Shown here one piece after another: positions 7,265 to 42,480 of a stretch of DNA of 64,000 bases. Positions within the stretch are counted from its first letter, which is position 1; every line of letters begins with the position of its first letter. The stretch is from an uncultured Pseudobdellovibrionaceae bacterium (lineage in GTDB: Bacteria > Pseudomonadota > Alphaproteobacteria > Micavibrionales > Micavibrionaceae). The stretch spans positions 150,115 to 214,114 of the forward strand of contig CAZFPB010000002.1 in assembly GCA_964520985.1 (NCBI GenBank), written 5' to 3'. A program made the translations under genes and the position numbers. The notes under the pieces are model-generated. The model did not search any database and was not told the DNA's origin. It saw nothing but the letters and a program-made list of their open reading frames with translations.

Positions 7265-8353
7265 ATGAAAACCTACCTTGTTGGCGGCGCTGTCCGAGAC
7301 ATGCTCATGGGTTTAGAACCCAAAGACCAAGATTATGTTGTAGTAGGTGCAACTCCATCCCAAATGATCGAACTTGGTTATCATAAGGTTGGTTCTTCGT
7401 TCCCTGTTTTTCTGAAAAACAACTGCGAATATGCTCTTGCTCGAACTGAACGTAAGACGGGTGTTGGGTATAATGGGTTTGATGTAGATTACAATCCAAA
7501 CGTAACACTGGAACAAGATCTGCTGCGTCGTGATTTGACGATCAATAGTATTGCCCAAGATCCAGAAACTGGCGAATTGGTTGATCCGTATGGTGGGCTA
7601 CGGGACATCAAAAACAAAATGTTGCGTCACACAAGTGAAGCATTTGCAGAAGATCCAATTCGTGTTCTTCGAGTTGCTCGATTTGCAGCTCGCTATCCTG
7701 ATTTTTCTGTTGATCCACAAACATTAGATTTGATGGCTACGATTCTACCGGAGTTGCAATATGTTCCATATGAACGAATTTGGACGGAATTGGATAAAGG
7801 AATGCAAGAAAAGGCTCCATATCGCATGTTTGAAATATTGAACAATGTAGGTGCTTTTTCGAAACGCAAATCTGTGCTGTGGCCATATGGGGAAGCTACT
7901 ACATGGACGCCTCAACAATGGATTAATATGCAAGAAGCTGATGACCAATTAGCTGCATATGCATGTATTCTTAAAGGATTTGTTGAGAGTGCAGAACGCA
8001 ATTCGTTGTTCCAACAATATTGTGTTCCTGTCCATTATTACAAACCTGCGACTGCGTTGTGGAATAACCACACGCAGATTATGAAGTATTTGGAATTGAC
8101 GATTGATCAAAAACTGACGTTGTTCAATAACATACGTGCATTTACTGATGCAAGCACGTTGAAATGGGCAATCGGAATGTTAGCAAATTTGGATCAATCA
8201 TTCGATTATGTTGGTGTTTGGACGTACGTAACACGTGATCTCAATGCGTTGAGTCAGCTTGACCTTGAAACTGTGGCTACTAAGGCAACCGGTAACAAAG
8301 CGGTTGCTATATATCAAGCACGGTATCAATGTTTAGCGCAACTATATGAGTGA
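7265..8353 (+). CDS. cca: tRNA nucleotidyltransferase (CCA-adding enzyme)
   Basis: YLVGGAVRDMLMG head-domain motif and RRDLTINSIA (RRD motif) of class II CCA-adding enzymes / poly(A) polymerase family; 362 aa; RBS GGAGA. Confidence 0.85.
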   Translation: MKTYLVGGAVRDMLMGLEPKDQDYVVVGATPSQMIELGYHKVGSSFPVFLKNNCEYALARTERKTGVGYNGFDVDYNPNVTLEQDLLRRDLTINSIAQDPETGELVDPYGGLRDIKNKMLRHTSEAFAEDPIRVLRVARFAARYPDFSVDPQTLDLMATILPELQYVPYERIWTELDKGMQEKAPYRMFEILNNVGAFSKRKSVLWPYGEATTWTPQQWINMQEADDQLAAYACILKGFVESAERNSLFQQYCVPVHYYKPATALWNNHTQIMKYLELTIDQKLTLFNNIRAFTDASTLKWAIGMLANLDQSFDYVGVWTYVTRDLNALSQLDLETVATKATGNKAVAIYQARYQCLAQLYE

Positions 8354-13668: not shown

Positions 13669-13757
13669 AGTAGAGTGGTGTAATGGTTGCACGCTAGGCT
13701 TATAACCTAGAAGCCCCAGATTAGGGCGTGGTGACGGGTTCGATTCCCTCCTCTACT
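13669..13757 (+). tRNA. tRNA-like element, degenerate (anticodon-arm-like CTAGG-CTTATAA-CCTAG, long extra arm)
   Basis: Acceptor-like AGTAGAG/CTCTACT, D-arm GTG-TAATGGTT-CAC, extra hairpin GCCC-CAGATTA-GGGC. The T-stem has only 3 clean bp. Possible pseudo-tRNA. Confidence 0.25.
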
Positions 13758-13767
13758 ACAGAACAAT

Positions 13768-13852
13768 AGTATTGTGGCCGAATGGGTAGGCAACAGCCTG
13801 ATAAGCTGTGTCAGTAATGACGAAGCTGGTTCGAGTCCAGTCAATACTACCA
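13768..13852 (+). tRNA. tRNA with Ile anticodon GAT and a long (type-II-like) variable arm; encoded CCA
   Basis: Acceptor AGTATTG/CAATACT + A + CCA. D GCC-GAATGGGTA-GGC. Anticodon arm ACAGC-CTGATAA-GCTGT. A 15-nt variable arm with hairpin GTCA-GTAA-TGAC. T GCTGG-TTCGAGT-CCAGT. 85 nt. Confidence 0.5.
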
Positions 13853-17234: not shown

Positions 17235-17324
17235 TCCGCTCGGGCTGGCTAGGTGAAGGCTTTCGGCTGTTAACCGAATGACTCCTTAAATGGAGGCGAG
17301 GTTCGAATCCTCGGGGCGGAGCCA
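17235..17324 (+). tRNA. tRNA with Asn anticodon GTT and a long (type-II-like) variable arm; CCA encoded
   Basis: Acceptor TCCGCTC/GGGCGGA + G + CCA. Anticodon arm TTCGG-CTGTTAA-CCGAA. An 18-nt variable arm with hairpin CTCC-TTAAAT-GGAG. T CGAGG-TTCGAAT-CCTCG. 90 nt. Confidence 0.5.
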
Positions 17325-17343
17325 AATTAAAGAGAATAGAAGT

Positions 17344-17775
17344 ATGAGAGGTGATAGAACAAAACAGAAGGGAACGCTGGGTGAGCTTTGTGTTATGTTT
17401 GAAGCAGCGAAACGTGGATATAATGTTCTAGTGCCTTGTGGTGATTATTCTCAATACGATTTAGTGGTAGAACGTAACGGAAAGTTTGAACGAGTTCAGG
17501 TTAAATCTGTAACTCCAAAAGATGGAAAGTTGTGTGTTCATACTAAAAGTATGACTTTTGACAAAGAACAAAGTACAAATAATCGAAGTAAACAAGTAAA
17601 ATATTCTGCAGGTGATTTTGATTGGTTAGCTGCGTATGATTTAGAAAATGATGAAGTATATTTCATTCCGGCAAATTTAGTAGTTAATCGAACAAGTTTT
17701 GCATTGCGTTTATCTGATACAAAGAATGGTCAAATAGCAAATGTTCGATTTGCTAAAGACTTTCAAAATTGGTAA
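17344..17775 (+). CDS. PD-(D/E)XK-like nuclease family protein (putative)
   Basis: Start moved to ATG 17344 to clear the tRNA. GDYSQYDLVVERNGKFERVQVKS has a D...(D/E)xK arrangement typical of restriction-endonuclease-fold nucleases. Confidence 0.4.
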   Translation: MRGDRTKQKGTLGELCVMFEAAKRGYNVLVPCGDYSQYDLVVERNGKFERVQVKSVTPKDGKLCVHTKSMTFDKEQSTNNRSKQVKYSAGDFDWLAAYDLENDEVYFIPANLVVNRTSFALRLSDTKNGQIANVRFAKDFQNW

Positions 17776-17785
17776 ACATTAGTAT

Positions 17786-17927
17786 TGGCATGTAGCTCAG
17801 CGGTAGAGCTGGTGACTGTTTTGGTTGTAATTCAACCATTATCGTTTCTATGAGACGATAAGAATTGATGTATAAACATCACAGATTAATCACCCGGTCG
17901 TAGGTTCGATCCCTACCATGCCAGCCA
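17786..17927 (+). tRNA. interrupted tRNA gene: intact 5' and 3' halves separated by a 76-nt three-hairpin insert in the anticodon loop; CCA encoded
   Basis: 5' half is TGGCATG-TA-GCTC-AGCGGTA-GAGC-T-GGTGA. 3' half is TCACC-CGGTC-GTAGG-TTCGATC-CCTAC-CATGCCA-G-CCA. Acceptor pairs 7/7. Anticodon stem GGTGA/TCACC encloses an insert with hairpins TGGTTG/CAACCA, TTATCGT/ACGATAA and GATGT/ACATC. Confidence 0.55.
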
Positions 17928-18094: not shown

Positions 18095-18198
18095 GAATCG
18101 TAAGTGGGCAGGACTAGGGTTCGATTCCCTTTAGGTATGGTACTGAACATGAGGCGCTGAAAGCCTCAGCCTTCAAGGTTCGATTTCTTGACGATTCT
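18095..18198 (+). ncRNA. elongated tRNA-like RNA (104 nt): terminal acceptor stem, two T-arm-like hairpins and an anticodon-arm-like hairpin
   Basis: Ends GAATCGT/ACGATTC pair 7/7. 3' proximal T-arm CAAGG-TTCGATT-TCTTG. Internal AGGG-TTCGATT-CCCT. Hairpin TGAGGC-GCTGAAA-GCCTCA. Confidence 0.4.
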
Positions 18199-18221
18199 TC
18201 AACTAACGTAGAATAAAAAAT

Positions 18222-18530
18222 ATGAATCGTCTGCAATGGTTATTATCCAAATTAGCTGAAGAAGCTAGTGAAGTCAGTCAAATCTCCCTTAAAACATCTC
18301 AATTTGGTCCGGATGAAGTCATGCCTGGCCAGCCGTTAACAAACTTTCAACGTACTCATGGTGAGTTGAATGATTTGTTGGCTATTGTTGAAGTGCTTAA
18401 TGATGAGTATAATTTTGATTTTAAATGTGATCTAAATTCATTAGATCGCAACGCTATTGAATTAAAGAAACAGAAGCTTGAAAAATACTATCGTTATTCT
18501 GTGAGCTTAGGATTGGTTAAAGATGAGTGA
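18222..18530 (+). CDS. hypothetical protein
   Basis: 102 aa ORF. Confidence 0.4.
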   Translation: MNRLQWLLSKLAEEASEVSQISLKTSQFGPDEVMPGQPLTNFQRTHGELNDLLAIVEVLNDEYNFDFKCDLNSLDRNAIELKKQKLEKYYRYSVSLGLVKDE

Positions 18531-19080
18531 CATCATTAAACTGTATGGTAAAGATATTGATATTTCCAATCTGAAACTGTCTGATATCACAAATGCATTT
18601 GTTGATAATATTTGGACAGAACAAGAATTAGAAAAAATGTGTCAAACTCATCGTAGCCAACAAAATACTTTTGTATATTTTGAAAGTGATGAATTATATC
18701 ATGCAATGTTCGAAATATTGGAAACGATGAACGTTGATATTCAGCATATTAAAAATAAGCTAATTGCTAAACTAGCGCCTCATATCTATCTTAACGATTG
18801 CGATTATTCGATACAAGATGTAACGGTGCCTGCATATTCGGATGGTGAATCGTGTTTAACAGCTACAATTGTAAGATATGTTGTAAAAGTGGATACGGTA
18901 AATGACGTGCGGGGCCAAATTAAATCGAAGCTCAAACAAGCTATTAAACGACGTGACCAAAAACAACGCGAAATAAAAGAAGACCTTGAAACATTGAATC
19001 GTCTGCAGCAAAAATATGGCGCTCAACTTGATACCCTTTTACAAAAGGAACAGTCAGATGAAGGCTATCCGTATTCATAA
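18523..19080 (+). CDS. hypothetical protein
   Basis: 185 aa; ATGA overlap with the upstream ORF. Confidence 0.45.
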   Translation: MSDIIKLYGKDIDISNLKLSDITNAFVDNIWTEQELEKMCQTHRSQQNTFVYFESDELYHAMFEILETMNVDIQHIKNKLIAKLAPHIYLNDCDYSIQDVTVPAYSDGESCLTATIVRYVVKVDTVNDVRGQIKSKLKQAIKRRDQKQREIKEDLETLNRLQQKYGAQLDTLLQKEQSDEGYPYS

Positions 19081-19085
19081 TATAA

Positions 19086-19161
19086 GCACAGTCGTATCGG
19101 GTGGTCCGAGACAACGAAGGCCAAGTTGGATAAATTGGTTCGATTCCAATACTGTGCGCCA
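19086..19161 (+). tRNA. tRNA, anticodon unresolved; CCA encoded
   Basis: Acceptor GCACAGT/ACTGTGC + G + CCA and T ATTGG-TTCGATT-CCAAT are canonical. The D/anticodon region GTATCGGGTGGTCCGAGACAACGAAGGCCAAG does not give a canonical 7-nt U33 anticodon loop. Confidence 0.5.
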
Positions 19162-19178
19162 ATAATAAAAGGTGTAAA

Positions 19179-19541
19179 ATGCAAGATCAATTCATCCGTG
19201 GATATACATGTGTATCTAAAACGTGGTACGGTTCATATGTTTTAGAAAATATGGGACCTGATATTTGTGAAATGTTTATCGTAGGTATGTACAACGCAAA
19301 CACAATTAAACCTTTAGGTGAATTCTCAATAATTTGGTTTAAGCACCAAGGTAAGGTAATACCAAAAGTAGAAATGATCGACAGCGGTTGGAAAGCATTT
19401 CATACGTCAGGTATATTAAGTGCATTAGTTCAAGCTGAACATGTTGGAAATACATCACCTGATGATATTGAACAGTTGTTATTGAATTTGAATTTCATTA
19501 ATGTGACTCAACAAGAACAATCATCAGACCTAGACTACTGA
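19179..19541 (+). CDS. hypothetical protein
   Basis: 120 aa ORF. Confidence 0.4.
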   Translation: MQDQFIRGYTCVSKTWYGSYVLENMGPDICEMFIVGMYNANTIKPLGEFSIIWFKHQGKVIPKVEMIDSGWKAFHTSGILSALVQAEHVGNTSPDDIEQLLLNLNFINVTQQEQSSDLDY

Positions 19542-19548
19542 GGACGCA

Positions 19549-20001
19549 ATGATGCATTTGGTTTATAAAAAAATTGTCATGAAAGTGGCACAAGCCTTGA
19601 TTAATGATTTTTCAATGGTGTCATTCGAAGATGCTCACAAATATTTGATTCCTGAAGATCAGATAGATGACATGAAATATGTTGTTACTGAAACGCAGAT
19701 TCAAAAATTTGTGGATGCAATAACAGAAACAGTTGTTAATATGTGTGCAACAGAATTGGATGAGATTCAGTGGCACGTGGATAACGGAACACAGAAACCG
19801 TATAAGAATGCAGTTGATCTTGCGCAACAGATACGTCGGAAATTCTTGGTGGATGATTGGATTTCTGTTGATGACCGGTTGCCCTCCGATGGTGATTTTA
19901 TCGAAGGCAAGTCAAAAGATGGTACATGGACTGAAACGTGGGATAGTGATGAACCTCTTGGGTTGATGACTCATTGGCGATTGGTCGAACAGGAACAATA
20001 A
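19549..20001 (+). CDS. hypothetical protein
   Basis: 150 aa. Confidence 0.4.
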   Translation: MMHLVYKKIVMKVAQALINDFSMVSFEDAHKYLIPEDQIDDMKYVVTETQIQKFVDAITETVVNMCATELDEIQWHVDNGTQKPYKNAVDLAQQIRRKFLVDDWISVDDRLPSDGDFIEGKSKDGTWTETWDSDEPLGLMTHWRLVEQEQ

Positions 20002-20372
20002 TGGGCTGTTTTGTCTACAATGTAATTGGCGTTACTGATGATTATGAATGTCGTGATCATGAAATAATTAAATCGTTTTTTAATGAACAGAAAGCAATTG
20101 ATTTTTGTAATGAATTACGAAAAGATTTGCCAATTCTTAGTGCTATTTCTAATGGATTTATAAGCTACATGGCGAATTGGTGGGAAGGTAATCCGTATTC
20201 ATCAGTTGTGAATAATGTAGATGATTTTGATGAAAAGTATCTTAAAACAGTAACCGACTACGCAAACCGATTTACAACTGATCAAGAGATAGTTGATTAT
20301 TTTGTGCAAAACGCCCATCAGGATTTTCACAGAAAATCGTACATAGTCAGATCAATATGGGTGGACGATTAA
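20001..20372 (+). CDS. hypothetical protein
   Basis: Start at the TAATG overlap at 20001. Confidence 0.4.
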   Translation: MGCFVYNVIGVTDDYECRDHEIIKSFFNEQKAIDFCNELRKDLPILSAISNGFISYMANWWEGNPYSSVVNNVDDFDEKYLKTVTDYANRFTTDQEIVDYFVQNAHQDFHRKSYIVRSIWVDD

Positions 20373-20651
20373 ATGATAAAACCAAAACCAGATTATCAAT
20401 ACCTGTACATTACGTGTAAGGGAAAAGGTGGTGTTTATAAACTGATTTGTGCAGCTGATGGTGCTGGAACAAGTCGTGGAACCACTAAAATAGTATATCA
20501 AGACGCATTCGATGACTTGCGCTTTTTCGTTCGTGATTCCGAAGATTTTTATGAGCGAATGGAACTTATTCCTCGAGAGCAAATAGAACAAGCAATTCAA
20601 ACAGAATTTGATAATAGAGAACAAGATGGACAATCGAATATTAAGTATTAA
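20373..20651 (+). CDS. hypothetical protein
   Basis: 92 aa. Confidence 0.4.
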   Translation: MIKPKPDYQYLYITCKGKGGVYKLICAADGAGTSRGTTKIVYQDAFDDLRFFVRDSEDFYERMELIPREQIEQAIQTEFDNREQDGQSNIKY

Positions 20652-21021
20652 CGGGAAAGGTGATCAGTTCCTACAAGAAGTATTGACCTTAGCCTTTAAG
20701 CAACAGGGCTACATTCAAAAATGTGATGGTTGGGCTGAAAATGAAGCAGGCCTAATTCTGCTGTGGAGTGCAGAAGATAAGGAAACTCATAAGTTTCCAG
20801 GTGGCGGACTAACGGCTGAACAAGTAACACCAATTGTTAGTGCTTGGTTGAAAAACAACGACCCCAATAAGTTTGACTTGGGCGATTGGGAACACGATCT
20901 TAGTCATGACGGCCACAACTCTGTTGGTTTTCGAGTGTATTGTGAAGATTGGGGTCATGCTGGTGGATTTCATTGCGCAATTTGTGCAGTGAAACCAGTT
21001 TATCTGTGGCATGGAAAATAA
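20608..21021 (+). CDS. hypothetical protein
   Basis: 137 aa with a C-terminal His/Cys cluster; overlaps the upstream ORF, so the true start may be an internal ATG. Confidence 0.35.
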   Translation: MIIENKMDNRILSINGKGDQFLQEVLTLAFKQQGYIQKCDGWAENEAGLILLWSAEDKETHKFPGGGLTAEQVTPIVSAWLKNNDPNKFDLGDWEHDLSHDGHNSVGFRVYCEDWGHAGGFHCAICAVKPVYLWHGK

Positions 21022-21023
21022 TT

Positions 21024-21344
21024 ATGAGCCAGTTATCTTTGTTGGAAAATCCACACATATCAATTGAAGACAGATTGGAAATTGCAAAAGGTGCTGTAGA
21101 GTACTTTGAACAACTGAGTACGTGTTGGAAGACAGCGTATGATAATTCTAAACAAGAGTTAGAAGACTATCAAACGTTTGTAATCGGCACATTAGCACAA
21201 CTTGGTGCTGTTACTAAAAAAGCTGATGGTTCTCCTCGTTTTCATTTGGATATTTTAATGGATCCGAAAGGACTATTAATGGTTGAACCGGGTGAACAGT
21301 TAATTGCTGCAAAAGATGTTGACGAATCATCAAACGATGAGTAA
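21024..21344 (+). CDS. hypothetical protein
   Basis: Start moved to ATG 21024. Confidence 0.4.
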   Translation: MSQLSLLENPHISIEDRLEIAKGAVEYFEQLSTCWKTAYDNSKQELEDYQTFVIGTLAQLGAVTKKADGSPRFHLDILMDPKGLLMVEPGEQLIAAKDVDESSNDE

Positions 21345-21377
21345 GATTACTAAATAACACTTCGGTGTTATTTAAAA

Positions 21378-21452
21378 GCTCAGTAAACTTTGATGGTGAA
21401 GCCTTGTCTTGTAAGCAAGCGGAAGGCGGTTCGAATCCGCCACTGAGCTCCA
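21378..21452 (+). tRNA. tRNA-Thr(TGT), second copy; CCA encoded
   Basis: Near-identical to 15125-15199 in acceptor, D and anticodon arms (CTTGT-CTTGTAA-GCAAG). T-arm differs (GGCGG-TTCGAAT-CCGCC). Confidence 0.85.
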
Positions 21453-21464
21453 GAGATTTAACCT

Positions 21465-21725
21465 ATGAAAATGCATAAAATAGAATTGTACGTTTTGGAT
21501 TTTGAAGATTATGGGATTGAAGAGTGTACTTCGATATTAGAACACATCGATCCTCACGGAGCTATAGTAAAAGTTAATCCAATTGGTTCTGTTGAGATCG
21601 GTGAATGGCATGATGGCCATGAATTAAATTTCCGTAGTACGGATTATAATAAGTATTTCGCAAAAGCAGATGATGATCGTCGAGTTCAATGGTATCATCG
21701 TTTTTGCAAAAATTCTGAACAATAG
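21465..21725 (+). CDS. hypothetical protein
   Basis: 86 aa. Confidence 0.4.
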   Translation: MKMHKIELYVLDFEDYGIEECTSILEHIDPHGAIVKVNPIGSVEIGEWHDGHELNFRSTDYNKYFAKADDDRRVQWYHRFCKNSEQ

Positions 21726-21726
21726 T

Positions 21727-21856
21727 AAGTGACGATAATCGGATCGTAAAAATAACAGATAGGTTGGTGGTAGGTTCCAATGAGCTTAGTGCTTACGTCC
21801 TCCATATAATGCCTGATGCACTGTTATCGGATAAGGTTCAATTCCTTACGCTTACT
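21727..21856 (+). ncRNA. elongated or interrupted tRNA-like locus (about 130 nt)
   Basis: 5' GTAAGTG pairs with 3' CGCTTAC (one GU) next to a canonical T-arm TAAGG-TTCAATT-CCTTA. D-arm-like CGAT-AATCGG-ATCG. A 6-bp helix TAACAG/CTGTTA encloses about 60 nt. Confidence 0.3.
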
Positions 21857-21993
21857 CGAAGATGTTGCGTAGTGAACGGTTACTTCGACTGTTAATCGAG
21901 AAGAGAAGGTTCGAATCCTTCCATCCCGTAGGGATGTAGTGTAATGGTAGCACTCTAAAATCTCCGTTTGCGTTTTTATCTCATCTTTTTTAT

Positions 21994-22077
21994 AAGTCAG
22001 TAGACTAGCAAGTGTCGCCCTAGTCAGATAGCTCGAAAGAGCTGGAGTTCCAGTAGGTTCGAATCCTACCTGGCTTG
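21994..22077 (+). tRNA. tRNA-like, type-II length (84 nt), anticodon unresolved
   Basis: Acceptor AAGTCAG/CTGGCTT (one GU), T GTAGG-TTCGAAT-CCTAC. Internal 6-bp GACTAG/CTAGTC helix and AGCTC-GAAA-GAGCT hairpin. Confidence 0.3.
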
Positions 22078-22079
22078 CT

Positions 22080-22199
22080 AACGTAATGGTCTAGCGGATA
22101 AGACACTCGTACGAGGGTTGGAAGCTGTTCGATTCAGCTGAATGCACGGTGACCGTAATTCCGCAACGAGAAAGGTACGTTCGAATCGTACTTACGTTT
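22080..22199 (+). ncRNA. elongated tRNA-like RNA (120 nt) with a terminal acceptor stem and two T-arm-like hairpins
   Basis: Ends AACGTAA/TTACGTT pair 7/7. 3' T-arm GTACG-TTCGAAT-CGTAC. Internal AGCTG-TTCGATT-CAGCT. D-loop-like TAGCGGATAA. Confidence 0.35.
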
Positions 22200-22219: not shown

Positions 22220-22807
22220 ATGACAGATGTAATTGTTCATAATGCTTATGGCAACATTGACGTATATCCAGCAACTTTAGAACACGCCCTCAAATTAGTT
22301 AATCTGCAAGTGTTTAGTGGTGATTATTCGAATGCTTGTGAATTCTTTGAAAATATAAAAAACAAAATAAACATTAGTGGAGATATGGTATGCAGAGCAA
22401 TACACGACGTGTGTATGTTACCTGTTGATACTCCATCAAAGTATCTAAATGCATTGACAGATGGTAAGTATCGTACCATTACAGCAGATATTAAGAATGA
22501 AACAATAATATATTTGTGGAATCATCAAATTACCATAAAACATCCAACATATAGTGGAATGTTTGGCAGGTTAACTATACTGCAACCTCAACGATCCTTA
22601 ACCTATTTGAAACAGTTTGATCAACAAACAGATTGTTATTTTTATTATCCAGATCAATTAGACCGATATTCGCAATTGCGGTGTATTATTGAAGGAAGAT
22701 GGAAAGAAACAGCTAGTGAAATTAGCAAAATTAAATACATTGTTGAATTTCTGAATGAACATTATTCAAACGATAGTAAATTTTACATTACATCAATACA
22801 GGAATAG
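22220..22807 (+). CDS. hypothetical protein
   Basis: Start moved to ATG 22220 (MTDVIVHNAYG), downstream of the tRNA-like element. Confidence 0.45.
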   Translation: MTDVIVHNAYGNIDVYPATLEHALKLVNLQVFSGDYSNACEFFENIKNKINISGDMVCRAIHDVCMLPVDTPSKYLNALTDGKYRTITADIKNETIIYLWNHQITIKHPTYSGMFGRLTILQPQRSLTYLKQFDQQTDCYFYYPDQLDRYSQLRCIIEGRWKETASEISKIKYIVEFLNEHYSNDSKFYITSIQE

Positions 22808-28852: not shown

Positions 28853-29059
28853 ATGTCGACACGTGCGAAAGTGCGTCGTCATCTTATGTATGACTATTTT
28901 GTTCATAAAGATTCCACCACATCTCAATTCTATCTTGATAAACTGGAACGAATGAGTGACGAAACGCTGGAACAGCTTTACGACAAACTGTTCCAGTTTA
29001 AAGGTTTTCAAGAGTGGGTTAAATTCTTACACCAACAATTGGATCAACAAGATGAGTAA
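28853..29059 (+). CDS. hypothetical small protein
   Basis: Start moved to ATG 28853 (RBS GAGGA). Confidence 0.35.
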   Translation: MSTRAKVRRHLMYDYFVHKDSTTSQFYLDKLERMSDETLEQLYDKLFQFKGFQEWVKFLHQQLDQQDE

Positions 29060-29507
29060 CGTCATTTTTCTGGATGTTGATGGTGTAATGGCACCTACCA
29101 AGATGGTATTTCATCCTTCTCATGTAAAAGGATCTGTCATTAATATTTTTGATCCAGTTGCTGTTGGAATGATTAATCAATTGCCGATGGATGTGGGACC
29201 GTGCAGTATTGTACTGACAAGTGTATGGCGTAAACAAGGATTCGATCGTTGTCAGGCTATGTTCTCAATGAACAAAGTAACAGTTCCGTTTCATGAACAA
29301 TGGTGTACAGATCCTACAATGTCAAATCGGACAAGGTCAATCACAGAATGGATTGATCAATATGGTGCTTCAGGTTATCGATATCTGGTAGTAGATGATG
29401 AAGCGTTGGATTGTACTATAGGTCATTTGTTTCTTCGTACTTGTACTGATAACGGATTTATGTTTTCCGATTATGAAGAAATGAGATTAATTTTGGAGAC
29501 ACAATAA
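29052..29507 (+). CDS. HAD-superfamily phosphatase-like protein
   Basis: N-terminal MSNVIFLDVDGVM is a DxDG(T/V) motif I. Confidence 0.5.
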   Translation: MSNVIFLDVDGVMAPTKMVFHPSHVKGSVINIFDPVAVGMINQLPMDVGPCSIVLTSVWRKQGFDRCQAMFSMNKVTVPFHEQWCTDPTMSNRTRSITEWIDQYGASGYRYLVVDDEALDCTIGHLFLRTCTDNGFMFSDYEEMRLILETQ

Positions 29508-31337: not shown

Positions 31338-32663
31338 ATGTTCGTTACCACAGTAACTGTTGCACTCATTGGCTTCTTGGTTTGGATGTTGGTGGCATTT
31401 GCACTTCGTAAAGTCGTACCGACTAATGAAGTTCATATTGTCCAATCTGCTAAACAAACAATTTCTTATGGTAAAGACCATGCTGCAGGAAACACTTATT
31501 ACAAGGTTCCAAGTTGGATTCCTCGTTATGGTGTAACCACAATTATGCTTCCTGTTTCCAACTTCGACCAAGACTTGCCTGCGTACGATGCGTATGACCG
31601 TGGGCGCGTTCCGTTCGTCGTTGATATCAAAGCATTCTTCCGAATCGACAATCCAGAAATGGCTGCGCAGCGGGTGTCGTCTTTCAATGAACTATTGGAA
31701 CAACTGCGTGCAATTCTTCAAGGTGCTATTCGTAGTATTCTGGCATCTAAGGATATTGAAGAAATCCTTCAAGGTCGCAGTGAAATTGGTACAATGTTTA
31801 CTGAGGAAGTTGATGAACAACTGAAACAGTGGGGTGTTAGCACTGTCAAAAACATTGAACTAATGGACATTCGTGACTCAGCGGGTTCGCAAGTTATTGC
31901 GAATATCATGGAGAAGAAAAAGTCTCTGATTGAAAAAGAAAGCCGTATTGAAGTGGCAAATAACAAAAAAGAAGCAAGCATTGCTGAAATTAGTGCAGCT
32001 CGCGACACCGAAATTCAACGACAAGCTGCCGCTCAGCAAATCGGTGAACGTACTGCTCAGAAAGACCAAGCAATTGGTATTGCAAATGAGCAGGCTCAGC
32101 AGAACATTAAAGAGCAGCAGAAAGTAACTACCGAAAAAGAAATTGCAGTTGTTAAAGTTGCTGAAACTGGTCGTGCTCAGGTTCAACGTGAAGTGCAAGT
32201 TATTGCTGCTAATCAACAACGCGAAACCGAAGTTATTAAAGCTGAAGGTCAGAAGCAAACTACCGTTCTGGTTGCTGAAGGTAATCTGCAAAGCACTCGA
32301 CTGGAAGCTGAAGGTATTCAAGCAGAAGGTGTGGCTCGTGCTGATGCTGAGAAAGCAATGCAACTGGCACCTGTTGAAGCGCAGATCGTTCTTGCGAAAG
32401 AAATTGGTGAAAACCAAGGTTACCAGCAATATCTGATTAGCGTCCGCACGATCGAAAAAGATCAAGTTGTTGGTATCGAACAAGCCAAAGCTCTGTCTGA
32501 TGCAGACATCAAAGTTATCGCAAACAGCGGTGATGTTAACAGCGGCATGAACAGCGTGATGGATCTGCTGTCTGCCAAAGGTGGAACTGCTCTGGGTGCT
32601 GCTGTGGAAGCATTCAAACAGACTCCTGCTGGTGAAGCCTTGCTTAACAACATCGGTAAATAA
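31338..32663 (+). CDS. SPFH/band-7 (flotillin/YqiK-like) membrane protein
   Basis: N-terminal TM helix (VTVALIGFLVWMLVAFAL). SPFH-like core (RVPFVVDIKAFFRIDNPEMAAQRV). A long Ala/Gln/Glu coiled-coil and a C-terminal Gly/Ala tail. 441 aa. Confidence 0.55.
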   Translation: MFVTTVTVALIGFLVWMLVAFALRKVVPTNEVHIVQSAKQTISYGKDHAAGNTYYKVPSWIPRYGVTTIMLPVSNFDQDLPAYDAYDRGRVPFVVDIKAFFRIDNPEMAAQRVSSFNELLEQLRAILQGAIRSILASKDIEEILQGRSEIGTMFTEEVDEQLKQWGVSTVKNIELMDIRDSAGSQVIANIMEKKKSLIEKESRIEVANNKKEASIAEISAARDTEIQRQAAAQQIGERTAQKDQAIGIANEQAQQNIKEQQKVTTEKEIAVVKVAETGRAQVQREVQVIAANQQRETEVIKAEGQKQTTVLVAEGNLQSTRLEAEGIQAEGVARADAEKAMQLAPVEAQIVLAKEIGENQGYQQYLISVRTIEKDQVVGIEQAKALSDADIKVIANSGDVNSGMNSVMDLLSAKGGTALGAAVEAFKQTPAGEALLNNIGK

Positions 32664-32755: not shown

Positions 32756-33142
32756 ATGACAATCACTGTACCTATTTTGCCGGTTGATACTCCTACGATT
32801 AACAATCGGATTTATACAACTGAAGCTGTGGAACAAGCATTACAGAAAGTGAAAGAGCCAGTATTTGGTGGATTTGTTAATGATTATGAAGGCATTGATA
32901 TCGCTATAGAAAATTATGCATTTCGTGCATCAAATCTTAGAATTCACGATGGAAATGTTATTGCTGAAATTGAAATTCTTAACACACCGAAAGGTTTGGT
33001 ATTAGAAGATTTGCTGAATAGTGTTTGTCCAATGAGATTTGCAGCAGCAGGTACATGTAGAATTGAGAATCAACAGATAACCGAATACGAAATCCGTACT
33101 GTACAATTAGTTGCTGAGGGCGTATTTGAAGAAGGAAATTAA
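32756..33142 (+). CDS. hypothetical protein
   Basis: 128 aa. Confidence 0.4.
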   Translation: MTITVPILPVDTPTINNRIYTTEAVEQALQKVKEPVFGGFVNDYEGIDIAIENYAFRASNLRIHDGNVIAEIEILNTPKGLVLEDLLNSVCPMRFAAAGTCRIENQQITEYEIRTVQLVAEGVFEEGN

Positions 33143-33143
33143 T

Positions 33144-34166
33144 ATGGATAAGTTATTAACACGTGATCAGTTTCGAACTCAGGTATTCGAAAGGGATAAA
33201 CATAAGTGCGTGTTTTGTGACAACCCTGCAGTAGATGCGCATCACATTATGGAACGTAGATTATGGCCTGATGGTGGTTATTATCTATCTAATGGTGCAA
33301 GTGTTTGTCAAACACATCACATTATGTGTGAGACGACGGAAATTTCACTAGATGACGTTCGTGAAGCGTGTGGAATTCTTAAACCAATCATTCCGCCACA
33401 TTTGTATGGTGATCAGCCATATGACAAATGGGGCAATCCTATTCTTGCAAATGGGCAACGAGTAATTGGTGAATTGTTCTTTGACGAAAGCGTTCAAAAA
33501 ATTCTCGGTCAAGGTAAAGTTCTTGATCTGTTTACCCATTATGTCAAATATCCAAGAACCCATCATTTGCACTGGTCGGAAAATGTTAATGACGATGATC
33601 GTGTAATTGAATCGTTAAAACATTTTGAAGGAGAACGAGTTATTGTCACCACTAAGATGGATGGTGAAAGTACTACGATGTACACCGACTATATACATGC
33701 TCGCAGTGTTGACGGTCGTTCTCACCCATCACGAGATTATGTCAAACAACTGTGGAGCAGGTTTGCACACGATATTCCTGAACGGTGGCGAATTTGTGGT
33801 GAGAATCTGTATGCTCGTCACTCAATTACATATGATGACCTTCCAAGCTATTTGATGGGTTTTTCTGTATGGAATGAACGAAACGTTGCGTTGTCGTGGG
33901 ATGACACTGTCGAATGGTTTGAGTTACTTGGAATTGAATGTGTTCCTGTATTGTATGATGGTATCTGGAATGAAACTACTATTAAGCAGTTGTGGAATTC
34001 ATCGATGTGGGACAATTGCGAAGGATATGTAGTTCGAGTAGCTGATGAGATTACATACGGGGACTTTCGTCATAAAGTCGGCAAGTTTGTAAGGAAAGAT
34101 CACATTCAAACGATTAAACATTGGATGTATGGACAACCTATTGTTCCTAATAAATTGAGGAAGTAG
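33144..34166 (+). CDS. HNH-nuclease-domain / RNA-ligase (nucleotidyltransferase KxDG) fusion protein
   Basis: Start at ATG 33144 (RBS AAGGAA). N-terminal CVFCDNPAVDAHHIMERRLWPDGGYYLSNGASVCQTHH is an HNH motif. Central VIVTTKMDGEST is the ligase motif I (KxDG). 341 aa. Confidence 0.5.
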   Translation: MDKLLTRDQFRTQVFERDKHKCVFCDNPAVDAHHIMERRLWPDGGYYLSNGASVCQTHHIMCETTEISLDDVREACGILKPIIPPHLYGDQPYDKWGNPILANGQRVIGELFFDESVQKILGQGKVLDLFTHYVKYPRTHHLHWSENVNDDDRVIESLKHFEGERVIVTTKMDGESTTMYTDYIHARSVDGRSHPSRDYVKQLWSRFAHDIPERWRICGENLYARHSITYDDLPSYLMGFSVWNERNVALSWDDTVEWFELLGIECVPVLYDGIWNETTIKQLWNSSMWDNCEGYVVRVADEITYGDFRHKVGKFVRKDHIQTIKHWMYGQPIVPNKLRK

Positions 34167-34794: not shown

Positions 34795-36312
34795 ATGGCA
34801 AATAAAAAACTCAACCCAAAAGGTAAAGATATTAAAGGTAATATCGTTGCGGTTGCTGCGAAACATGATCGCCAGTTGGCTCGTTCTGGTAATGGAAATC
34901 TTCAGTTTGTAAAAACTGCTCGTTCCGATTTGTATGCTATCATTACGTCTACGCTGTATGGACGTGATACGTATTATAATTCTGGTGACCAAATCGTCGC
35001 TCGACTGAAACAACAGATCGACGCTGTGGTTAATGAAGAAGATGGGCCAGACTTTATTGCAAACTTGATTATTCATGCTCGTACAGAAATGCACATTCGA
35101 ACGATTCCGATCGTTGCAACTGTGCATCTTGCAAAGTCATTGCGTGATCAAGGTAAGACGTTTGAATCAATGCGTCGTCTTGTATGTGATGTTATTACTC
35201 GTGCAGATCAGATTACTGATATGTATGCGTATTCGCTAACCGTATTCGGCGACAAGAAAAAAGTGCCAATGGCAATTAAGCGTGGTGTTGCTGACGCATT
35301 TAACAAATTTGATGAATATCAATTTGCTAAGTACAACCGCAGCAATGAATTGAAAATGCGTGACGTATTACGAATTGTTCACCCTGTTGCTGCAAACGTG
35401 GCACAAGGTGAGATTTTTAGTCGTATTATGTCTGATACGTTAGCTACTCCATATACGTGGGAAACTCAGTTGAGCGAAAATGGTCAGCGTGATCCCAAAG
35501 AACGTAAATCGCTTGACGAATTATGGACAGAGCTGTTCACGTCTGGAAAGATGGGTTATATGGCTCAGTTGCGTAATCTGCGTAACTTGGAACAGAATGT
35601 ATCTCATCAACCGACATTGAAAGCAGTTGCAAGTGTGATTGCAGATCCAGATCGTGTTGAAAAATCGAAACAATTGCCTTTTGATTTTACAGAGGCATAT
35701 AAAGCAGTAAGTAATTCGACCTTGAAGACTGCTGTTTCACGTGCGATCGATCACAGTGTTGGTAATATTCCAGCACTTGGTAAAAACGTATGGATCATCG
35801 TTGATGCGTCTGGATCGATGAGTGGATTTCCACGTGAAATGTCAACGATGTTCGCCGCCGCGATTTACAAGAATGCGACGTTCAATCCTGAAGTTGAGAA
35901 TCATGCGCTAACGGTTTTTGGATCGAAAGCACATATGGTTACTGATTTGGATTGCAACCAATCCATTTTTCATATTGCACAGAAGTTTCAGAAAAACTTG
36001 GGAGCAACAGATTTTGACGAAGCGTTACAATTAAAATCAAAACTTGGTTTTAATCCTGACACAGTAATTGTGTTCACGGACAATGAAATTGATGATATGC
36101 CATATGGCAATCTTGCTTATGCATTTGATGATAAATGTGTCAAAATTGCTGTTAACTTGGAAGCGTCGGTAACGACTCCTTTCATTCGTGAAAATGGATG
36201 GTACGAATTGGCAGGTTGGTCTACTAACATGTTTAAGTTCGTTCGAGCTATTCGTGACAAACGAACAGCAGTTGATGTTCTAAGTGTTCCATACGGAACA
36301 GTGCAATATTAA
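34795..36312 (+). CDS. rsr: Ro60/Rsr ortholog (TROVE domain + von Willebrand factor A domain)
   Basis: C-terminal vWA MIDAS motifs: WIIVDASGSMSG (DxSxS), LGATDFDEAL, VIVFTDNEIDD (FTDNE identical to human Ro60). N-terminal helical region with LYGRDTYY (compare GSEGGTYY) and LRIVHPVAA (compare RIHPFHIL). 505 aa. Confidence 0.75.
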   Translation: MANKKLNPKGKDIKGNIVAVAAKHDRQLARSGNGNLQFVKTARSDLYAIITSTLYGRDTYYNSGDQIVARLKQQIDAVVNEEDGPDFIANLIIHARTEMHIRTIPIVATVHLAKSLRDQGKTFESMRRLVCDVITRADQITDMYAYSLTVFGDKKKVPMAIKRGVADAFNKFDEYQFAKYNRSNELKMRDVLRIVHPVAANVAQGEIFSRIMSDTLATPYTWETQLSENGQRDPKERKSLDELWTELFTSGKMGYMAQLRNLRNLEQNVSHQPTLKAVASVIADPDRVEKSKQLPFDFTEAYKAVSNSTLKTAVSRAIDHSVGNIPALGKNVWIIVDASGSMSGFPREMSTMFAAAIYKNATFNPEVENHALTVFGSKAHMVTDLDCNQSIFHIAQKFQKNLGATDFDEALQLKSKLGFNPDTVIVFTDNEIDDMPYGNLAYAFDDKCVKIAVNLEASVTTPFIRENGWYELAGWSTNMFKFVRAIRDKRTAVDVLSVPYGTVQY

Positions 36313-42408: not shown

Positions 42409-42480
42409 GACTGATTAGTATAATGGCATTACACAGGTCTCTAAAGCCGTGAGACGAGGGTTCGAATCCCTCATCAGTCA
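42409..42480 (+). tRNA. tRNA-like, atypical (9-nt anticodon-type loop), identity unresolved
   Basis: Acceptor GACTGAT/ATCAGTC, D GTA-TAATGGCAT-TAC, T GAGGG-TTCGAAT-CCCTC. The only helix available for the anticodon arm is GTCTC/GAGAC around TAAAGCCGT. Confidence 0.35.

What the first reader, a model, noticed from the sequence alone, without database searches (positions are those of the whole stretch)
18095..22199. Elongated tRNA-like RNAs (104-130 nt) with a perfect terminal acceptor stem and two T-arm-like hairpins
Three loci (18095-18198, 21727-21856, 22080-22199) have 5' and 3' ends that pair 7/7 right next to a canonical 3' T-arm, as in a tRNA. Each contains 30-60 extra nucleotides that include a second GG-TTCGATT-CC-type hairpin and an anticodon-arm-like hairpin. 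A 7-mer terminal match at this spacing by chance is unlikely (about 0.02 each). They could be tRNAs carrying inserts like 17786-17927, nested or fused tRNA duplications, or tRNA-mimicking regulatory RNAs. Bacterial Y RNAs (YrlA) are known to contain a tRNA-like module with a modified T-arm. Candidates include an RNA ligand for the Ro60/Rsr ortholog encoded at 34795-36312, or decoys for tRNA-targeting anticodon nucleases.
Basis: partly seen in the sequence, partly recalled or inferred. Interest (0 to 1): 0.7.

Follow-up and report, generated by a model that had tools for sequence, protein, structure and literature searches.

The report
Oversized tRNA-shaped RNAs flanking a Y RNA
Three oversized tRNA-shaped RNA genes in a giant phage's tRNA cluster are real and probably do not decode; one belongs to an unannotated RNA family conserved in hundreds of T5-like phages, and the true partner RNA (Y RNA) for the phage's Ro60 protein lies between them, not at them.

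Summary
Loci 1 and 3 close with 7/7 Watson-Crick pairs directly after a canonical T-arm. Locus 2 closes with 6 WC + 1 GU and starts at 21725, not 21727. Chance is about 0.008-0.03 per T-arm. None is a normal tRNA or a YrlA: Rfam tRNA gives no hit at E<10 and phage Y-RNA models give no match.

A genuine YrlA-family Y RNA lies between loci 2 and 3 (21857-21991). A covariance model built only from Ro-adjacent Y RNAs of five other phages scores it 82.3 bits (E 7e-19), with strong covariation.

Locus 3 belongs to a conserved, unannotated, non-Rfam family. Its homologue in T5-like phage rokbiter matches 427 phage records, plus a partial copy in Acinetobacter phage Acj9. In that family 16 of 30 pairs change on both sides. 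T5-like hosts are not among the ten commonest genera with a Ro match, so locus 3 is probably not Ro-dependent. Loci 1 and 2 have no homologues and no usable anticodon loop.

Best reading: tRNA-chassis stable RNAs, like T4 species-1 RNA or Lak-phage "intron" tRNAs. They would be processed by tRNA enzymes, carry structured inserts, and punctuate the Y RNA. Function is unknown. The spliced-tRNA and decayed-pseudogene readings remain open for some loci.

The parts
18095..18198 (+). Locus 1: a 104-nt tRNA-shaped RNA. It has an acceptor stem, a 3' T-arm, a T-loop hairpin (18116-18130) where the D-arm should be, and an anticodon-like hairpin (18151-18167, loop GCUGAAA).
   Evidence: 7/7 WC closure. 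Constrained fold is -30.9 against an MFE of -31.7 kcal/mol. No Rfam tRNA hit at E<10. ARAGORN fits it only as a forced Thr with a 13-nt intron and a long variable arm. No homologue in the phage collection beyond T-loop-level matches.
21725..21856 (+). Locus 2: a 132-nt tRNA-shaped RNA. It has an acceptor stem (6 WC + 1 GU), D-arm CGAT/ATCG, a 7-bp stem ATAACAG/CUGUUAU enclosing a 62-nt structured insert, and a T-arm with loop UUCAAUU.
   Evidence: the MFE is the cloverleaf-like fold, z = -2.2. ARAGORN does not call it even with introns allowed. No 7-nt anticodon loop with U33 and a purine at 37 can be reconstituted (enumerated from the sequence). No blastn hit in the phage collection.
21857..21991 (+). 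YrlA-family Y RNA. It has a terminal stem GAAGAUG/CAUCUUU, a stem GUGAACGG/CCGUUUGC, the GUUACUUC motif, a V hairpin UUCGA-CUGUUAA-UCGAG, a T-arm, a closed acceptor hairpin CAUCCC-GUA-GGGAUG and a D-arm. It is the probable ligand of the phage Rsr.
   Evidence: Rfam YrlA 31.4 bits. A 23-nt identity with the Olaya rsr-adjacent YrlA. Its blastn hits lie 100-450 nt upstream of TROVE genes in three phage groups. Covariation: 10 of 22 pairs change on both sides, 0/500 shuffles reach this. Leave-one-out covariance model: 82.3 bits, E 7e-19.
21994..22077 (+). E4: an 84-nt tRNA-like element. It has acceptor AAGUCAG/CUGGCUU (6 WC + 1 GU), a T-arm and a GAAA-tetraloop hairpin in the variable-arm position. 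Its anticodon arm is abnormal.
   Evidence: z = -2.1; ARAGORN at low threshold: tRNA-?(SeC|Leu).
22080..22199 (+). Locus 3: a 120-nt tRNA-shaped RNA. It has canonical acceptor, D- and T-arms and an anticodon stem CUCGU/ACGAG enclosing a 55-nt insert. The insert holds an inner T-loop hairpin (22123-22139) and a small hairpin ACGG-UGA-CCGU. It belongs to a conserved family found in T5-like phages.
   Evidence: On the family alignment 95.7% of cells are paired, 16 of 30 pairs change on both sides, and 0/500 shuffles reach this.
17786..17927 (+). tI: a tRNA-Asn-like gene with a 65-70-nt insert in the anticodon loop and an encoded CCA. Removing the insert can restore the loop CUGUUAA.
   Evidence: Rfam tRNA 51.1 bits with a 70-nt insertion. 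ARAGORN with introns allowed. MFE z = -4.9.
17290..17775 (+). A free-standing PD-(D/E)XK homing-endonuclease gene (I-Ssp6803I-like), 10 nt upstream of tI.
   Evidence: Pfam PDDEXK_5, E 6e-29. PDB 2OST, E 5.7e-10. A homologue sits inside another phage's tRNA array at L014.
19086..19161 (+). t19: a 76-nt tRNA-like RNA with 7/7 acceptor pairing, a T-arm and an encoded CCA. A single long arm replaces the D and anticodon arms. It carries the only GGUCCGA on the + strand of the window.
   Evidence: The only Rfam hit is tRNA-Sec at 19 bits.
34795..36312 (+). Rsr / Ro60 orthologue (TROVE + VWA), 12.8 kb downstream of the Y RNA on the same strand.
   Evidence: Pfam TROVE 1.3e-23 and VWA_2 5.6e-7. There is no YrlA-like hit within 30-45 kb.

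Best explanation
Loci 1-3 are genes for non-decoding, tRNA-chassis RNAs in the phage's tRNA/ncRNA operon.

Each keeps the part of a tRNA that the tRNA-processing enzymes read: a 7-bp acceptor stem stacked on a T-arm. Loci 2 and 3 also keep a D-arm. The anticodon loop (loci 2, 3) or the D-arm (locus 1) is replaced by a 45-62-nt structured module.

Inferred steps:
- The 475-nt gene-free block 21725-22199 is transcribed as one precursor.
- RNase P cuts at the 5' end of each tRNA-like unit, and tRNA 3'-end enzymes plus the phage CCA-adding enzyme finish the 3' ends.
- This releases stable RNAs and also sets the ends of the YrlA-type Y RNA (21857-21991) that sits between locus 2 and element E4. That Y RNA, not loci 1-3, is the likely Rsr ligand.
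- The inserts (in loci 1 and 3 an extra T-loop hairpin) are the working parts. They most likely bind a tRNA-interacting protein or RNA.

Shown: the anatomy, the non-random closure, Y-RNA family membership of 21857-21991, and conservation with covariation of the locus 3 family across unrelated phages.
Inferred: transcription, processing, stability and the binding function.
For: - Non-random acceptor/T-arm closure.
- MFE folds give tRNA-like cloverleaves for loci 2 and 3.
- The elements abut head to tail with 0-2 nt between them, in a block with no plausible gene.
- No usable anticodon loop. Locus 1 has C33. Locus 2 has no option with U33 plus a purine at 37. Locus 3 allows only UUCCGCA/AUCCGCA, with C37 (and enumeration).
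- Rfam tRNA gives no hit at E<10 even in a 516-nt search.
- Locus 3 is conserved. Its T5-like homologue (rokbiter) matches 427 phage records, always in tRNA arrays in those inspected and unannotated there, with a partial copy in T4-like Acj9.
- On the locus 3 family alignment 95.7% of cells pair. Of 30 pairs, 16 change on both sides. That is 28 double-change cells against 6.6 in shuffles (0/500). Slid controls pair at 28-44%.
- In that family the would-be anticodon is not fixed (CCG, or CCA in NBEco001 and Acj9), and ARAGORN intron calls are inconsistent across members. This argues against decoding.
- Precedents of the same shape exist. T4 species-1 RNA (rnaC) has a T-arm, an imperfect acceptor stem and long hairpins. 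Lak-phage tRNAs have T-arm-bearing inserts.
- In IMG/VR, at least 120 stretches hold two T-loops closer than tandem tRNAs allow. Of 124 sites, 29 have an outer acceptor closure, roughly 19 of them 7/7 WC by my count of the call-59/60 listings, against my estimate of about 4 expected.
- The Y RNA identity of 21857-21991 rests.
Against: - There is no expression or end-mapping data.
- Loci 1 and 2 have no homologues, so selection on them rests only on intact stems in one genome.
- Folding z-scores are weak.
- No partner for the inserts is identified.
- Locus 3's insert ends in a conserved UCCGCA that could be the 3' part of a real anticodon loop.
- A homing endonuclease of a type known from a tRNA intron sits next to tI. 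This keeps a splicing model alive.
Confidence: 0.5

Rival explanations
1. Intron-containing tRNA genes. The inserts would be removed at the RNA level, by an endonuclease plus the phage RNA ligases or by tRNA-processing enzymes, to give decoding tRNAs (locus 3 as tRNA-Arg CCG, tI as tRNA-Asn GUU). The inserts would persist because they break the target site of a tRNA-gene-specific homing endonuclease.
For: - With introns allowed, ARAGORN calls locus 3 as Arg(CCG) with a 48-nt intron and tI as Asn with a 67-nt intron.
- The locus 3 family conserves UCCGCA just 5' of the anticodon-stem 3' strand.
- An I-Ssp6803I-like endonuclease gene lies 10 nt from tI. From my own knowledge, its Synechocystis relative lives in a tRNA-fMet anticodon-loop intron.
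- In tI, a 4-bp anticodon-intron helix CUGU/ACAG is flanked by unpaired stretches, resembling a relaxed bulge-helix-bulge (read from the fold).
- The window also encodes two RNA ligases, a HAD RNA-repair domain protein and a CCA-adding enzyme.
- Lak megaphage tRNAs are described as carrying introns.
Against: - The inserts are far too short for group I introns, and Rfam finds no ribozyme.
- Locus 3 would have C37 and a non-canonical 31/32 insertion site.
- Locus 2 gives no canonical loop, and locus 1's extra module is not in the anticodon loop.
- Family members are not consistently callable as intron tRNAs, and the 'anticodon' varies between CCG and CCA.
- The insert itself is under structural selection, with covariation in its hairpins. 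That is unusual for a passive spacer.
- No splicing endonuclease was identified.
Confidence: 0.2
2. Additional Y RNAs. Loci 1-3 would be non-permuted tRNA-like ligands of the phage Rsr, alongside the YrlA at 21857-21991.
For: - Other phages carry arrays of 3-6 Y RNAs next to rsr.
- In crAss-like phages the TROVE gene is followed by two elongated tRNA-like RNAs, each a tRNA body with an ~80-nt insert. They carry the Y-RNA motif GAGUUACUUCAA and a conserved, covarying insert stem.
- Loci 2, E4 and 3 are physically contiguous with the YrlA.
Against: - No match to Rfam YrlA or to models R1 and R2.
- The GUUACUUC motif occurs only in the YrlA.
- UGGUGGU in locus 2 is not significant: there are 18 copies in the window.
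- The locus 3 family is present in T5-like phages, whose host genera are not among the ten commonest with a TROVE match.
- No TROVE gene lies in the flanks of 120 IMG/VR double-T-loop loci.
- The loci are 12.6-16.7 kb from rsr.
Confidence: 0.1
3. Decaying tRNA pseudogenes or recombination chimeras, applying to loci 1 and 2 in particular. They would be kept at most as RNase P cleavage punctuation for the neighbouring RNAs and mRNAs.
For: - There are no homologues.
- The anticodon loops are non-functional.
- Locus 2 lacks U8 and has a short D-loop.
- z-scores are weak.
- Many other tRNAs in this array score low or have odd shapes.
- T-loop microhomology could drive chimera formation.
Against: - Acceptor and T stems are perfect or near-perfect in all elements, while 45-62 nt were gained.
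- A 475-nt gene-free block is retained in a densely coded phage genome.
- Locus 3, which has the same architecture, is demonstrably conserved with covariation.
- The control tRNA array shows no such relics.
Confidence: 0.15

Closest known systems
YrlA-type bacterial/phage Y RNAs (Rfam RF02553; Chen et al. 2014, PMC4201824)
   Same: They are tRNA-derived and carry a T-arm and D-arm. At least M. smegmatis YrlA is an RNase P and CCA-adding-enzyme substrate. They are encoded with Rsr. The element at 21857-21991 is a true member.
   Different: Loci 1-3 have open, tRNA-like ends instead of a closed acceptor hairpin. They have no Ro-binding stem and no GUUACUUC / GNCGAA motifs, and they do not match the models.
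Unannotated tRNA-like element of T5-like phages (Demerecviridae; e.g. Epseptimavirus rokbiter, between tRNA-Lys and tRNA-Gly) and Acinetobacter phage Acj9
   Same: It is homologous to locus 3. The tRNA body is the same, as are the insert plan (CGAGGG, inner T-loop hairpin, small hairpin, CGUAA.UCCGCA) and the location in a tRNA array.
   Different: Every stem has a different sequence (compensatory changes). The T5-like copies have a 5-bp D-stem and a U-U mismatch in the acceptor stem. Acj9 shows no clear acceptor closure. Loci 1 and 2 are not members.
Phage T4 species 1 RNA (rnaC), the small stable RNA of the T4 tRNA cluster
   Same: It is 139 nt and lies at the end of a tRNA array next to a homing-endonuclease gene (segB). 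It has a canonical T-arm followed by a strand that pairs imperfectly with the 5' end, plus long extra hairpins. The record annotates it only as a small stable RNA, with no function given.
   Different: No sequence homology was detected. Its acceptor stem is imperfect, it has no D-arm and no second T-loop hairpin.
Lak megaphage tRNAs with 'enigmatic introns' (Devoto et al. 2019, PMC6784885)
   Same: They are phage tRNA genes enlarged by 79-114 nt in the anticodon loop. The inserts contain a T-arm-like hairpin and are conserved, with no Rfam hit.
   Different: Lak inserts sit at the canonical 37/38 position and leave a normal anticodon loop. Each contains a nested acceptor-plus-T minihelix. Loci 1-3 have no inner acceptor closure and no canonical loop.
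Elongated tRNA-like RNAs downstream of the TROVE gene in crAss-like phages (crAss001 group; found here, not annotated in the records)
   Same: Each is a tRNA body (acceptor, D, T) with an ~80-nt structured insert in the anticodon-arm position, in an Rsr-encoding phage.
   Different: They carry the Y-RNA motif GAGUUACUUCAA followed by a V-like hairpin, and they lie within 300-700 nt of the TROVE gene. Loci 1-3 have neither feature.

Membership tests
Canonical tRNA (Rfam RF00005) | 7-bp acceptor stem directly followed by a T-arm with a TTCRANY loop and a G53-C61 pair | tested here: met
   Loci 1 and 3 pair 7/7 WC; locus 2 pairs 6 WC + 1 GU. Locus 1 has G53-U61; loci 2 and 3 have G53-C61.
Canonical tRNA (Rfam RF00005) | 5-bp anticodon stem closing a 7-nt loop with U33 and a purine at 37 | tested here: not met
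   Locus 1 loop is GCUGAAA (C33). Loci 2 and 3 have 62- and 55-nt inserts. After any 7-nt reconstitution, locus 3 has C37 and locus 2 has no canonical option (and enumeration).
Canonical tRNA (Rfam RF00005) | Covariance-model score at or above the gathering threshold (29 bits) | tested here: not met
   No tRNA hit at E<10 for loci 1-3. By contrast tI scores 51.1 bits despite its 70-nt insert.
YrlA Y RNA (RF02553; Chen 2014), applied to loci 1-3 | T-arm, then closed acceptor hairpin, then D-arm, enclosed by a long stem formed by the RNA's ends | tested here: not met
   The ends of loci 1-3 form the acceptor stem itself. There is no hit with Rfam YrlA, R1 or R2.
YrlA Y RNA, applied to 21857-21991 | Homology and shared structure with Rsr-adjacent Y RNAs | tested here: met
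   Leave-one-out model R2 gives 82.3 bits, E 7e-19; the next hit is 27.5 bits. 90% of cells pair and 10 of 22 pairs change on both sides. blastn hits lie upstream of TROVE genes.
YrlA Y RNA, applied to 21857-21991 | Rfam gathering score (69 bits) | tested here: not met
   31.4 bits. Accepted phage examples next to rsr also score below the threshold: 50.0, 39.6 and 33.8 bits.
YrlA Y RNA, applied to 21857-21991 | GNCGAAN0-1G motif near the 5' end | tested here: inconclusive
   The sequence is CUCGAAG at 21854-21860, so the first G is missing. In the one Xanthomonas-phage YrlA I read for this motif (Olaya_b, by eye) I found none; the phage relatives share GGUGGYGWAG instead.
YrlA Y RNA, applied to 21857-21991 | Encoded within 4 kb of rsr on the same strand | tested here: not met
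   It is on the same strand but 12.8 kb upstream.
Lak-type tRNA intron with nested tRNA-like element | Insert at position 37/38 that contains its own 7-mer / T-arm / complementary 7-mer minihelix | tested here: not met
   The inner T-arm of locus 3 has no acceptor partner. For locus 1 the inner T-arm was checked by eye only and no partner was found. Insert positions are non-canonical.
Locus 3 / T5-like tRNA-array ncRNA family (defined here) | Alignable insert (CGAGGG, inner T-loop hairpin, small hairpin, CGUAA.UCCGCA) with compensatory changes in all helices | tested here: met
   Met for locus 3 only: A6 gives 95.7% paired cells and 16 of 30 pairs with double changes. Loci 1 and 2 have no hits.
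Group I or other self-cleaving/self-splicing RNA | Match to a known ribozyme or intron model | tested here: not met
   No such Rfam hit at E<10. The inserts are only 45-70 nt long.
T4 species-1-type stable RNA | Accumulates as a stable 120-140-nt RNA processed from the tRNA precursor | not testable with these tools
   Only the shape and location can be compared. Transcript data are needed.

The most novel reading that the evidence does not exclude
Locus 3 and its T5-like/Acj9 relatives, and by analogy loci 1 and 2 and many of the IMG/VR double-T-loop elements, represent an unrecognised, widespread class of phage 'tRNA-scaffolded' RNAs. An internal T-loop module, displayed on a tRNA chassis, would act on tRNA-handling machinery. 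For example it could be a decoy or sponge against tRNA-targeting defence nucleases. Alternatively it could be a new enzyme-spliced tRNA intron type linked to tRNA-gene homing endonucleases.
Probability: 0.25. Interest if true: 0.8.

Novelty: new variant of a known kind. Interest (0 to 1): 0.55.

Why it matters
Phage tRNA clusters are now known to matter in conflicts with tRNA-cleaving host defences, yet the odd RNAs in them are mostly unannotated.

This work makes four points:
- Oversized tRNA-shaped genes are a recurrent feature of phage tRNA arrays, not noise.
- One of them, locus 3, defines a covarying family. Its T5-like member matches hundreds of phage genomes, which offers a genetically tractable E. 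coli / Salmonella system for finding its function.
- Phage Y RNAs can sit in the tRNA array far from rsr. They are often mis-annotated as tRNAs or left unannotated.
- Several phages carry whole arrays of Y RNAs.

If the inserts prove to be decoys or a new intron type, that would add a new mechanism to phage-host RNA conflict.

Tried and rejected
- **Orthologues through flanking genes.** The ORFs at 22220-22807 and 21465-21725 have no usable relatives among 5.8 billion proteins (the first none; the second one weak 44%-identity hit on a 1.2-kb contig). The only contig found is identical to the window.
- **IMG/VR protein scans.** These were empty.
- **Exact or degenerate DNA patterns for the Y RNA and locus 3.** Scans of IMG/VR and JGI metagenomes gave 0 hits.
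- **Paralogy of the inserts within the window.** None was found.
- **YrlA near rsr.** None was found.
- **TROVE genes near 120 IMG/VR double-T-loop loci.** None was found, so a general Rsr link is rejected.
- **The UGGUGGU match between locus 2 and the phage Y-RNA 5' motif.** Rejected as chance: there are 18 copies in the window.
- **A 'mini-Y' covariance model (Ro helix + GUUACUUC; R3).** It failed to find even the window's own Y RNA, so it is uninformative.
- **Folding z-scores.** They do not discriminate.
- **ARAGORN intron models across the locus 3 family.** The calls are inconsistent.
- **TAG recoding.** The amber-suppressor tRNA prompted the check, but open-reading-frame statistics show no sign of it.
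- **Literature on a named T5 RNA.** One full-text search of the held library and one paper check found nothing. I recall that T5 small stable RNAs were described in the 1980s but could not verify this.

Full report
**Setting**

The window comes from a 330-kb phage genome. It has no close relative in the phage collection; the only match is a 38-nt tRNA-Ile stretch. Between 13.5 and 24 kb, all on the + strand, lies an array of tRNA genes interleaved with small ORFs. ARAGORN finds 15 tRNAs there, plus a sixteenth, an amber suppressor, at 42.4 kb; Rfam tRNA finds 12 in the window.

**Observation**

- Locus 1: GAATCGT (18095-18101) pairs 7/7 with ACGATTC (18191-18197), directly after T-arm 18174-18190.
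- Locus 3: AACGTAA (22080-22086) pairs 7/7 with TTACGTT (22192-22198), after T-arm 22175-22191.
- Locus 2: the partner of CGCTTAC (21849-21855) is GTAAGTG at 21725-21731 (6 WC + 1 GU).

In non-tRNA sequence of this window such a closure at 70-135 nt occurs with probability 0.008 (7 WC) or 0.03 (6 WC + GU). Five of seven strict-criterion orphan T-arms in the window close this way, four of them at 83-138 nt; locus 1's G-U-closed T-arm was outside that scan and was checked. A control array of 39 canonical tRNAs from huge phage LR756511 has no elongated closures.

A second T-loop hairpin is present in locus 1 (18116-18130) and locus 3 (22123-22139) but not in locus 2.

**Anatomy**

- Loci 2 and 3 fold without constraints into acceptor + D-arm + T-arm, with a long structured arm in the anticodon position.
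- Locus 3 keeps the standard elbow nucleotides (U8, A14, G18-G19, T-loop UUCGAAU), as read from the sequence.
- Locus 1 has a T-loop hairpin where the D-arm should be and an anticodon-like hairpin with loop GCUGAAA.
- Two more elements of the same kind exist: E4 (21994-22077) and t19 (19086-19161, with an encoded CCA).
- tI (17786-17927) is a tRNA-Asn-like gene with a 65-70-nt anticodon-loop insert.
- The block 21725-22199 has no credible ORF. Its four RNA units abut with 0-2 nt between them.

**What loci 1-3 are not**

- Rfam's tRNA model gives no hit at E<10, even in a 516-nt search. It tolerates the 70-nt insert of tI (51 bits).
- With introns allowed, ARAGORN models locus 3 as Arg(CCG) with a 48-nt intron at 31/32. 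That leaves the loop UUCCGCA with C37. It forces locus 1 into an implausible Thr model and does not call locus 2.
- Enumerating all 7-nt loops that removing an insert could leave gives no canonical loop for locus 2.
- They lack the nested minihelix of Lak megaphage tRNA introns.

**The real Y RNA**

Rfam YrlA hits 21873-21973, between loci 2 and 3, at 31.4 bits. Chen et al. warn that tandem tRNAs can mimic YrlA. I did see such a false positive at 28.7 bits in a Microcystis phage, but it covered only the T-AS-D core of the model.

The evidence for the window element is much stronger.
- It shares the 23-mer GTTACTTCGACTGTTAATCGAGA and CTAAAATCTC with the Rsr-adjacent YrlA of Xanthomonas phage Olaya, while every stem differs.
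- Its blastn hits fall 100-450 nt upstream of TROVE/Ro genes in three phage groups: Xanthomonas phages, Caulobacter phage CcrColossus and Rhodococcus phage Trina. In the latter two groups they are unannotated or labelled tRNA-Thr / tRNA-OTHER.
- On a 7-sequence alignment 90% of cells pair and 10 of 22 pairs change on both sides. There are 24 double-change cells against 6.9 in shuffles (0/500). Slid controls pair at 39-52%.
- Model R2 was built from 13 Rsr-adjacent Y RNAs of five phages, without the window sequence. It scores 21857-21991 at 82.3 bits (E 7e-19). The next best hit is 27.5 bits.

Other phage YrlAs also score below Rfam's threshold, at 34-50 bits. The fold is a terminal stem, a second stem, the GUUACUUC motif, a V hairpin identical to a tRNA-Asn anticodon arm, a T-arm, a closed acceptor hairpin and a D-arm.

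Two features are unusual. It is a single copy, whereas other phages have arrays of 3-6. It also lies 12.8 kb from rsr, and no YrlA lies closer. Loci 1-3 do not match R1 or R2.

**Locus 3 has relatives**

A sensitive blastn search found an 86-nt match in T5-like Salmonella phages. In Epseptimavirus rokbiter the element sits unannotated between tRNA-Lys and tRNA-Gly.

That element recurs in 427 phage records at 80-100% identity, almost all Demerecviridae. In the records sampled it has no annotated RNA feature, and a few have a hypothetical protein called over it. A partial copy follows tRNA-Gly in Acinetobacter T4-like phage Acj9. Rfam has no family for it.

I aligned locus 3 with seven members (A6). 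The model comprised acceptor stem, anticodon stem, closing helix, inner T-loop hairpin, small hairpin and T-arm.
- 95.7% of cells pair.
- 16 of 30 pairs change on both sides.
- There are 28 double-change cells against 6.6 in shuffles (0/500).
- Slid controls pair at 28-44%.

The unpaired motifs CGAGGG, GUUCGAUUC and CGUAA.UCCGCA are conserved. Locus 3 is therefore a conserved structured RNA, not a relic.

Salmonella and Escherichia phages are not among the ten commonest genera with TROVE matches. At most 9 of the 98 TROVE-matching records fall outside those genera. The family's role is therefore probably independent of Rsr.

The would-be anticodon varies (CCG, or CCA in NBEco001 and Acj9), and intron-tRNA calls across the family are inconsistent. 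Loci 1 and 2 have no detectable homologues.

**A wider class**

- T4's species 1 RNA (rnaC, 139 nt) has a canonical T-arm, an imperfect acceptor stem and two long hairpins.
- Lak megaphage tRNAs carry 79-114-nt conserved inserts with T-arm hairpins.
- A scan of IMG/VR for two GGTTCGAWTCC motifs 25-55 nt apart, closer than tandem tRNAs allow, hit its 120-stretch limit. I estimate about 1.4 would be expected by chance.
- Of 124 sites, 29 have an outer acceptor closure enclosing both T-arms, at 91-264 nt. By my count of the listings about 19 are 7/7 WC, against roughly 4 expected by my estimate.
- These include locus-1-like cases with the inner T-arm just after the acceptor strand, locus-3-like cases and Lak-type cases.
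- None of these loci has a TROVE gene in its flanks.

**Rsr-linked elongated tRNA-like RNAs do exist elsewhere**

In crAss001-group phages the TROVE gene is followed by an unannotated ~880-nt region. It holds two elongated tRNA-like RNAs (144 and 139 nt). One scores 45.6 bits as a tRNA with a 78-nt insert.

They carry GAGUUACUUCAA followed by a V-like hairpin and a T-arm. By my reading this is the motif order of a circularly permuted YrlA. The insert stem is maintained with covariation across five sequences (four distinct) from two genera. A relative lacking TROVE at that place ('tikkala') also lacks the first element.

**Context**

- The ORF 10 nt upstream of tI is a PD-(D/E)XK protein related to PDB 2OST. 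From my own knowledge, 2OST is I-Ssp6803I, the homing endonuclease of the Synechocystis tRNA-fMet intron.
- A homologue sits inside another phage's tRNA array.
- The window also encodes a CCA-adding enzyme, two RNA ligases, a HAD 'Swiss-army-knife' RNA-repair domain protein, an SPFH protein and Rsr.

**Interpretation**

The best-supported reading is that loci 1-3 are non-decoding tRNA-chassis RNAs. tRNA-maturation enzymes would process them from a common precursor. They would display structured inserts and, by their position, define the ends of the Y RNA.

A splicing model remains possible, mainly for locus 3 and tI. An Rsr-ligand model is unlikely. A pseudogene model cannot be excluded for loci 1 and 2. 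No step after the sequence-level anatomy has been observed directly.

Noticed in passing
window 21857-21991 (+): A genuine YrlA-family Y RNA sits in the tRNA array, 12.8 kb upstream of rsr. It is the only one in the window. Its V hairpin (UUCGA CUGUUAA UCGAG) is a tRNA-Asn anticodon arm.
   Followed up: yes
window 17290-17927 (+): An I-Ssp6803I-like PD-(D/E)XK homing-endonuclease gene lies 10 nt upstream of a tRNA-Asn-like gene with a 65-70-nt anticodon-loop insert. The insert pairs with the anticodon region in a 4-bp helix (CUGU/ACAG) flanked by unpaired stretches, resembling a relaxed bulge-helix-bulge.
   Followed up: partly
window 19086-19161 (+): A normal-length tRNA-like RNA has 7/7 acceptor pairing, a T-arm and an encoded CCA, but a single long arm. 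It contains the only GGUCCGA on the + strand of the window; that is the Ro-contact motif of metazoan and Deinococcus Y RNAs.
   Followed up: partly
window 21994-22077 (+): A fourth odd tRNA-like element (E4) has a GAAA-tetraloop hairpin in the variable-arm position and an abnormal anticodon arm.
   Followed up: partly
window 13669-13759, 13768-13852, 17235-17324 (+): Three tRNAs have a class-II shape (3-4-bp D-stem and a long variable arm) but anticodons UAU (Ile), GAU (Ile) and GUU (Asn). A long variable arm is unusual for those identities.
   Followed up: no
window 42409-42481 (+): An amber-suppressor tRNA (anticodon CUA) scores 56.9 bits. TAG is a rare stop (5 of 86 long ORFs), but open-reading-frame statistics give no sign of TAG recoding in this window.
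   Followed up: partly
window 7265-8353, 28956-29507, 31338-32663, 33111-34166, 43161-44348: An RNA-repair toolkit lies around Rsr: a CCA-adding enzyme, a HAD_SAK_2 domain protein, an SPFH/Band-7 protein and two RNA ligases. Band-7 genes also neighbour TROVE genes in crAss-like phages and in Rhodococcus phage Trina.
   Followed up: partly
L127:6414-7299 and homologous stretches in L129-L132 (crAss001-group phages): The unannotated region after the TROVE gene holds two elongated tRNA-like RNAs and four copies of the motif (G)AGUUACUUCAA. The first RNA looks like a circularly permuted YrlA, and its insert stem covaries.
   Followed up: partly
L135:2530-3128, L134:2490-3460, L124:4330-4948, L125:4339-4978: Tandem arrays of 3-6 Y RNAs lie upstream of rsr in Xanthomonas, Caulobacter and Brevundimonas phages. 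They share the motifs GGUGGYGWAG, GKUACUUC and UGUUCCCC. Some units are annotated as tRNA-Thr, tRNA-Gln or tRNA-OTHER.
   Followed up: partly
L137:~665-788 (Salmonella phage rokbiter) and 427 phage records: A conserved, unannotated tRNA-like RNA with an internal T-loop hairpin lies in the tRNA region of T5-like phages. It is homologous to locus 3 and absent from Rfam.
   Followed up: yes
IMG/VR loci L003-L122: At least 120 viral stretches have two T-loop motifs closer together than tandem tRNAs allow. About a quarter are elongated tRNAs of 91-264 nt. L068/L101 and L100 are diverged orthologues with compensatory changes in the acceptor and T stems.
   Followed up: partly
one search hits in Felixounavirus genomes (e.g. 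Salmonella phage Mushroom 64589-64643): Unannotated 52-55-nt matches to the T-arm / closed-acceptor / D-arm core of the Y RNA occur in Felix-O1-like phages. They could be tandem-tRNA junctions or YrlA-like elements.
   Followed up: no
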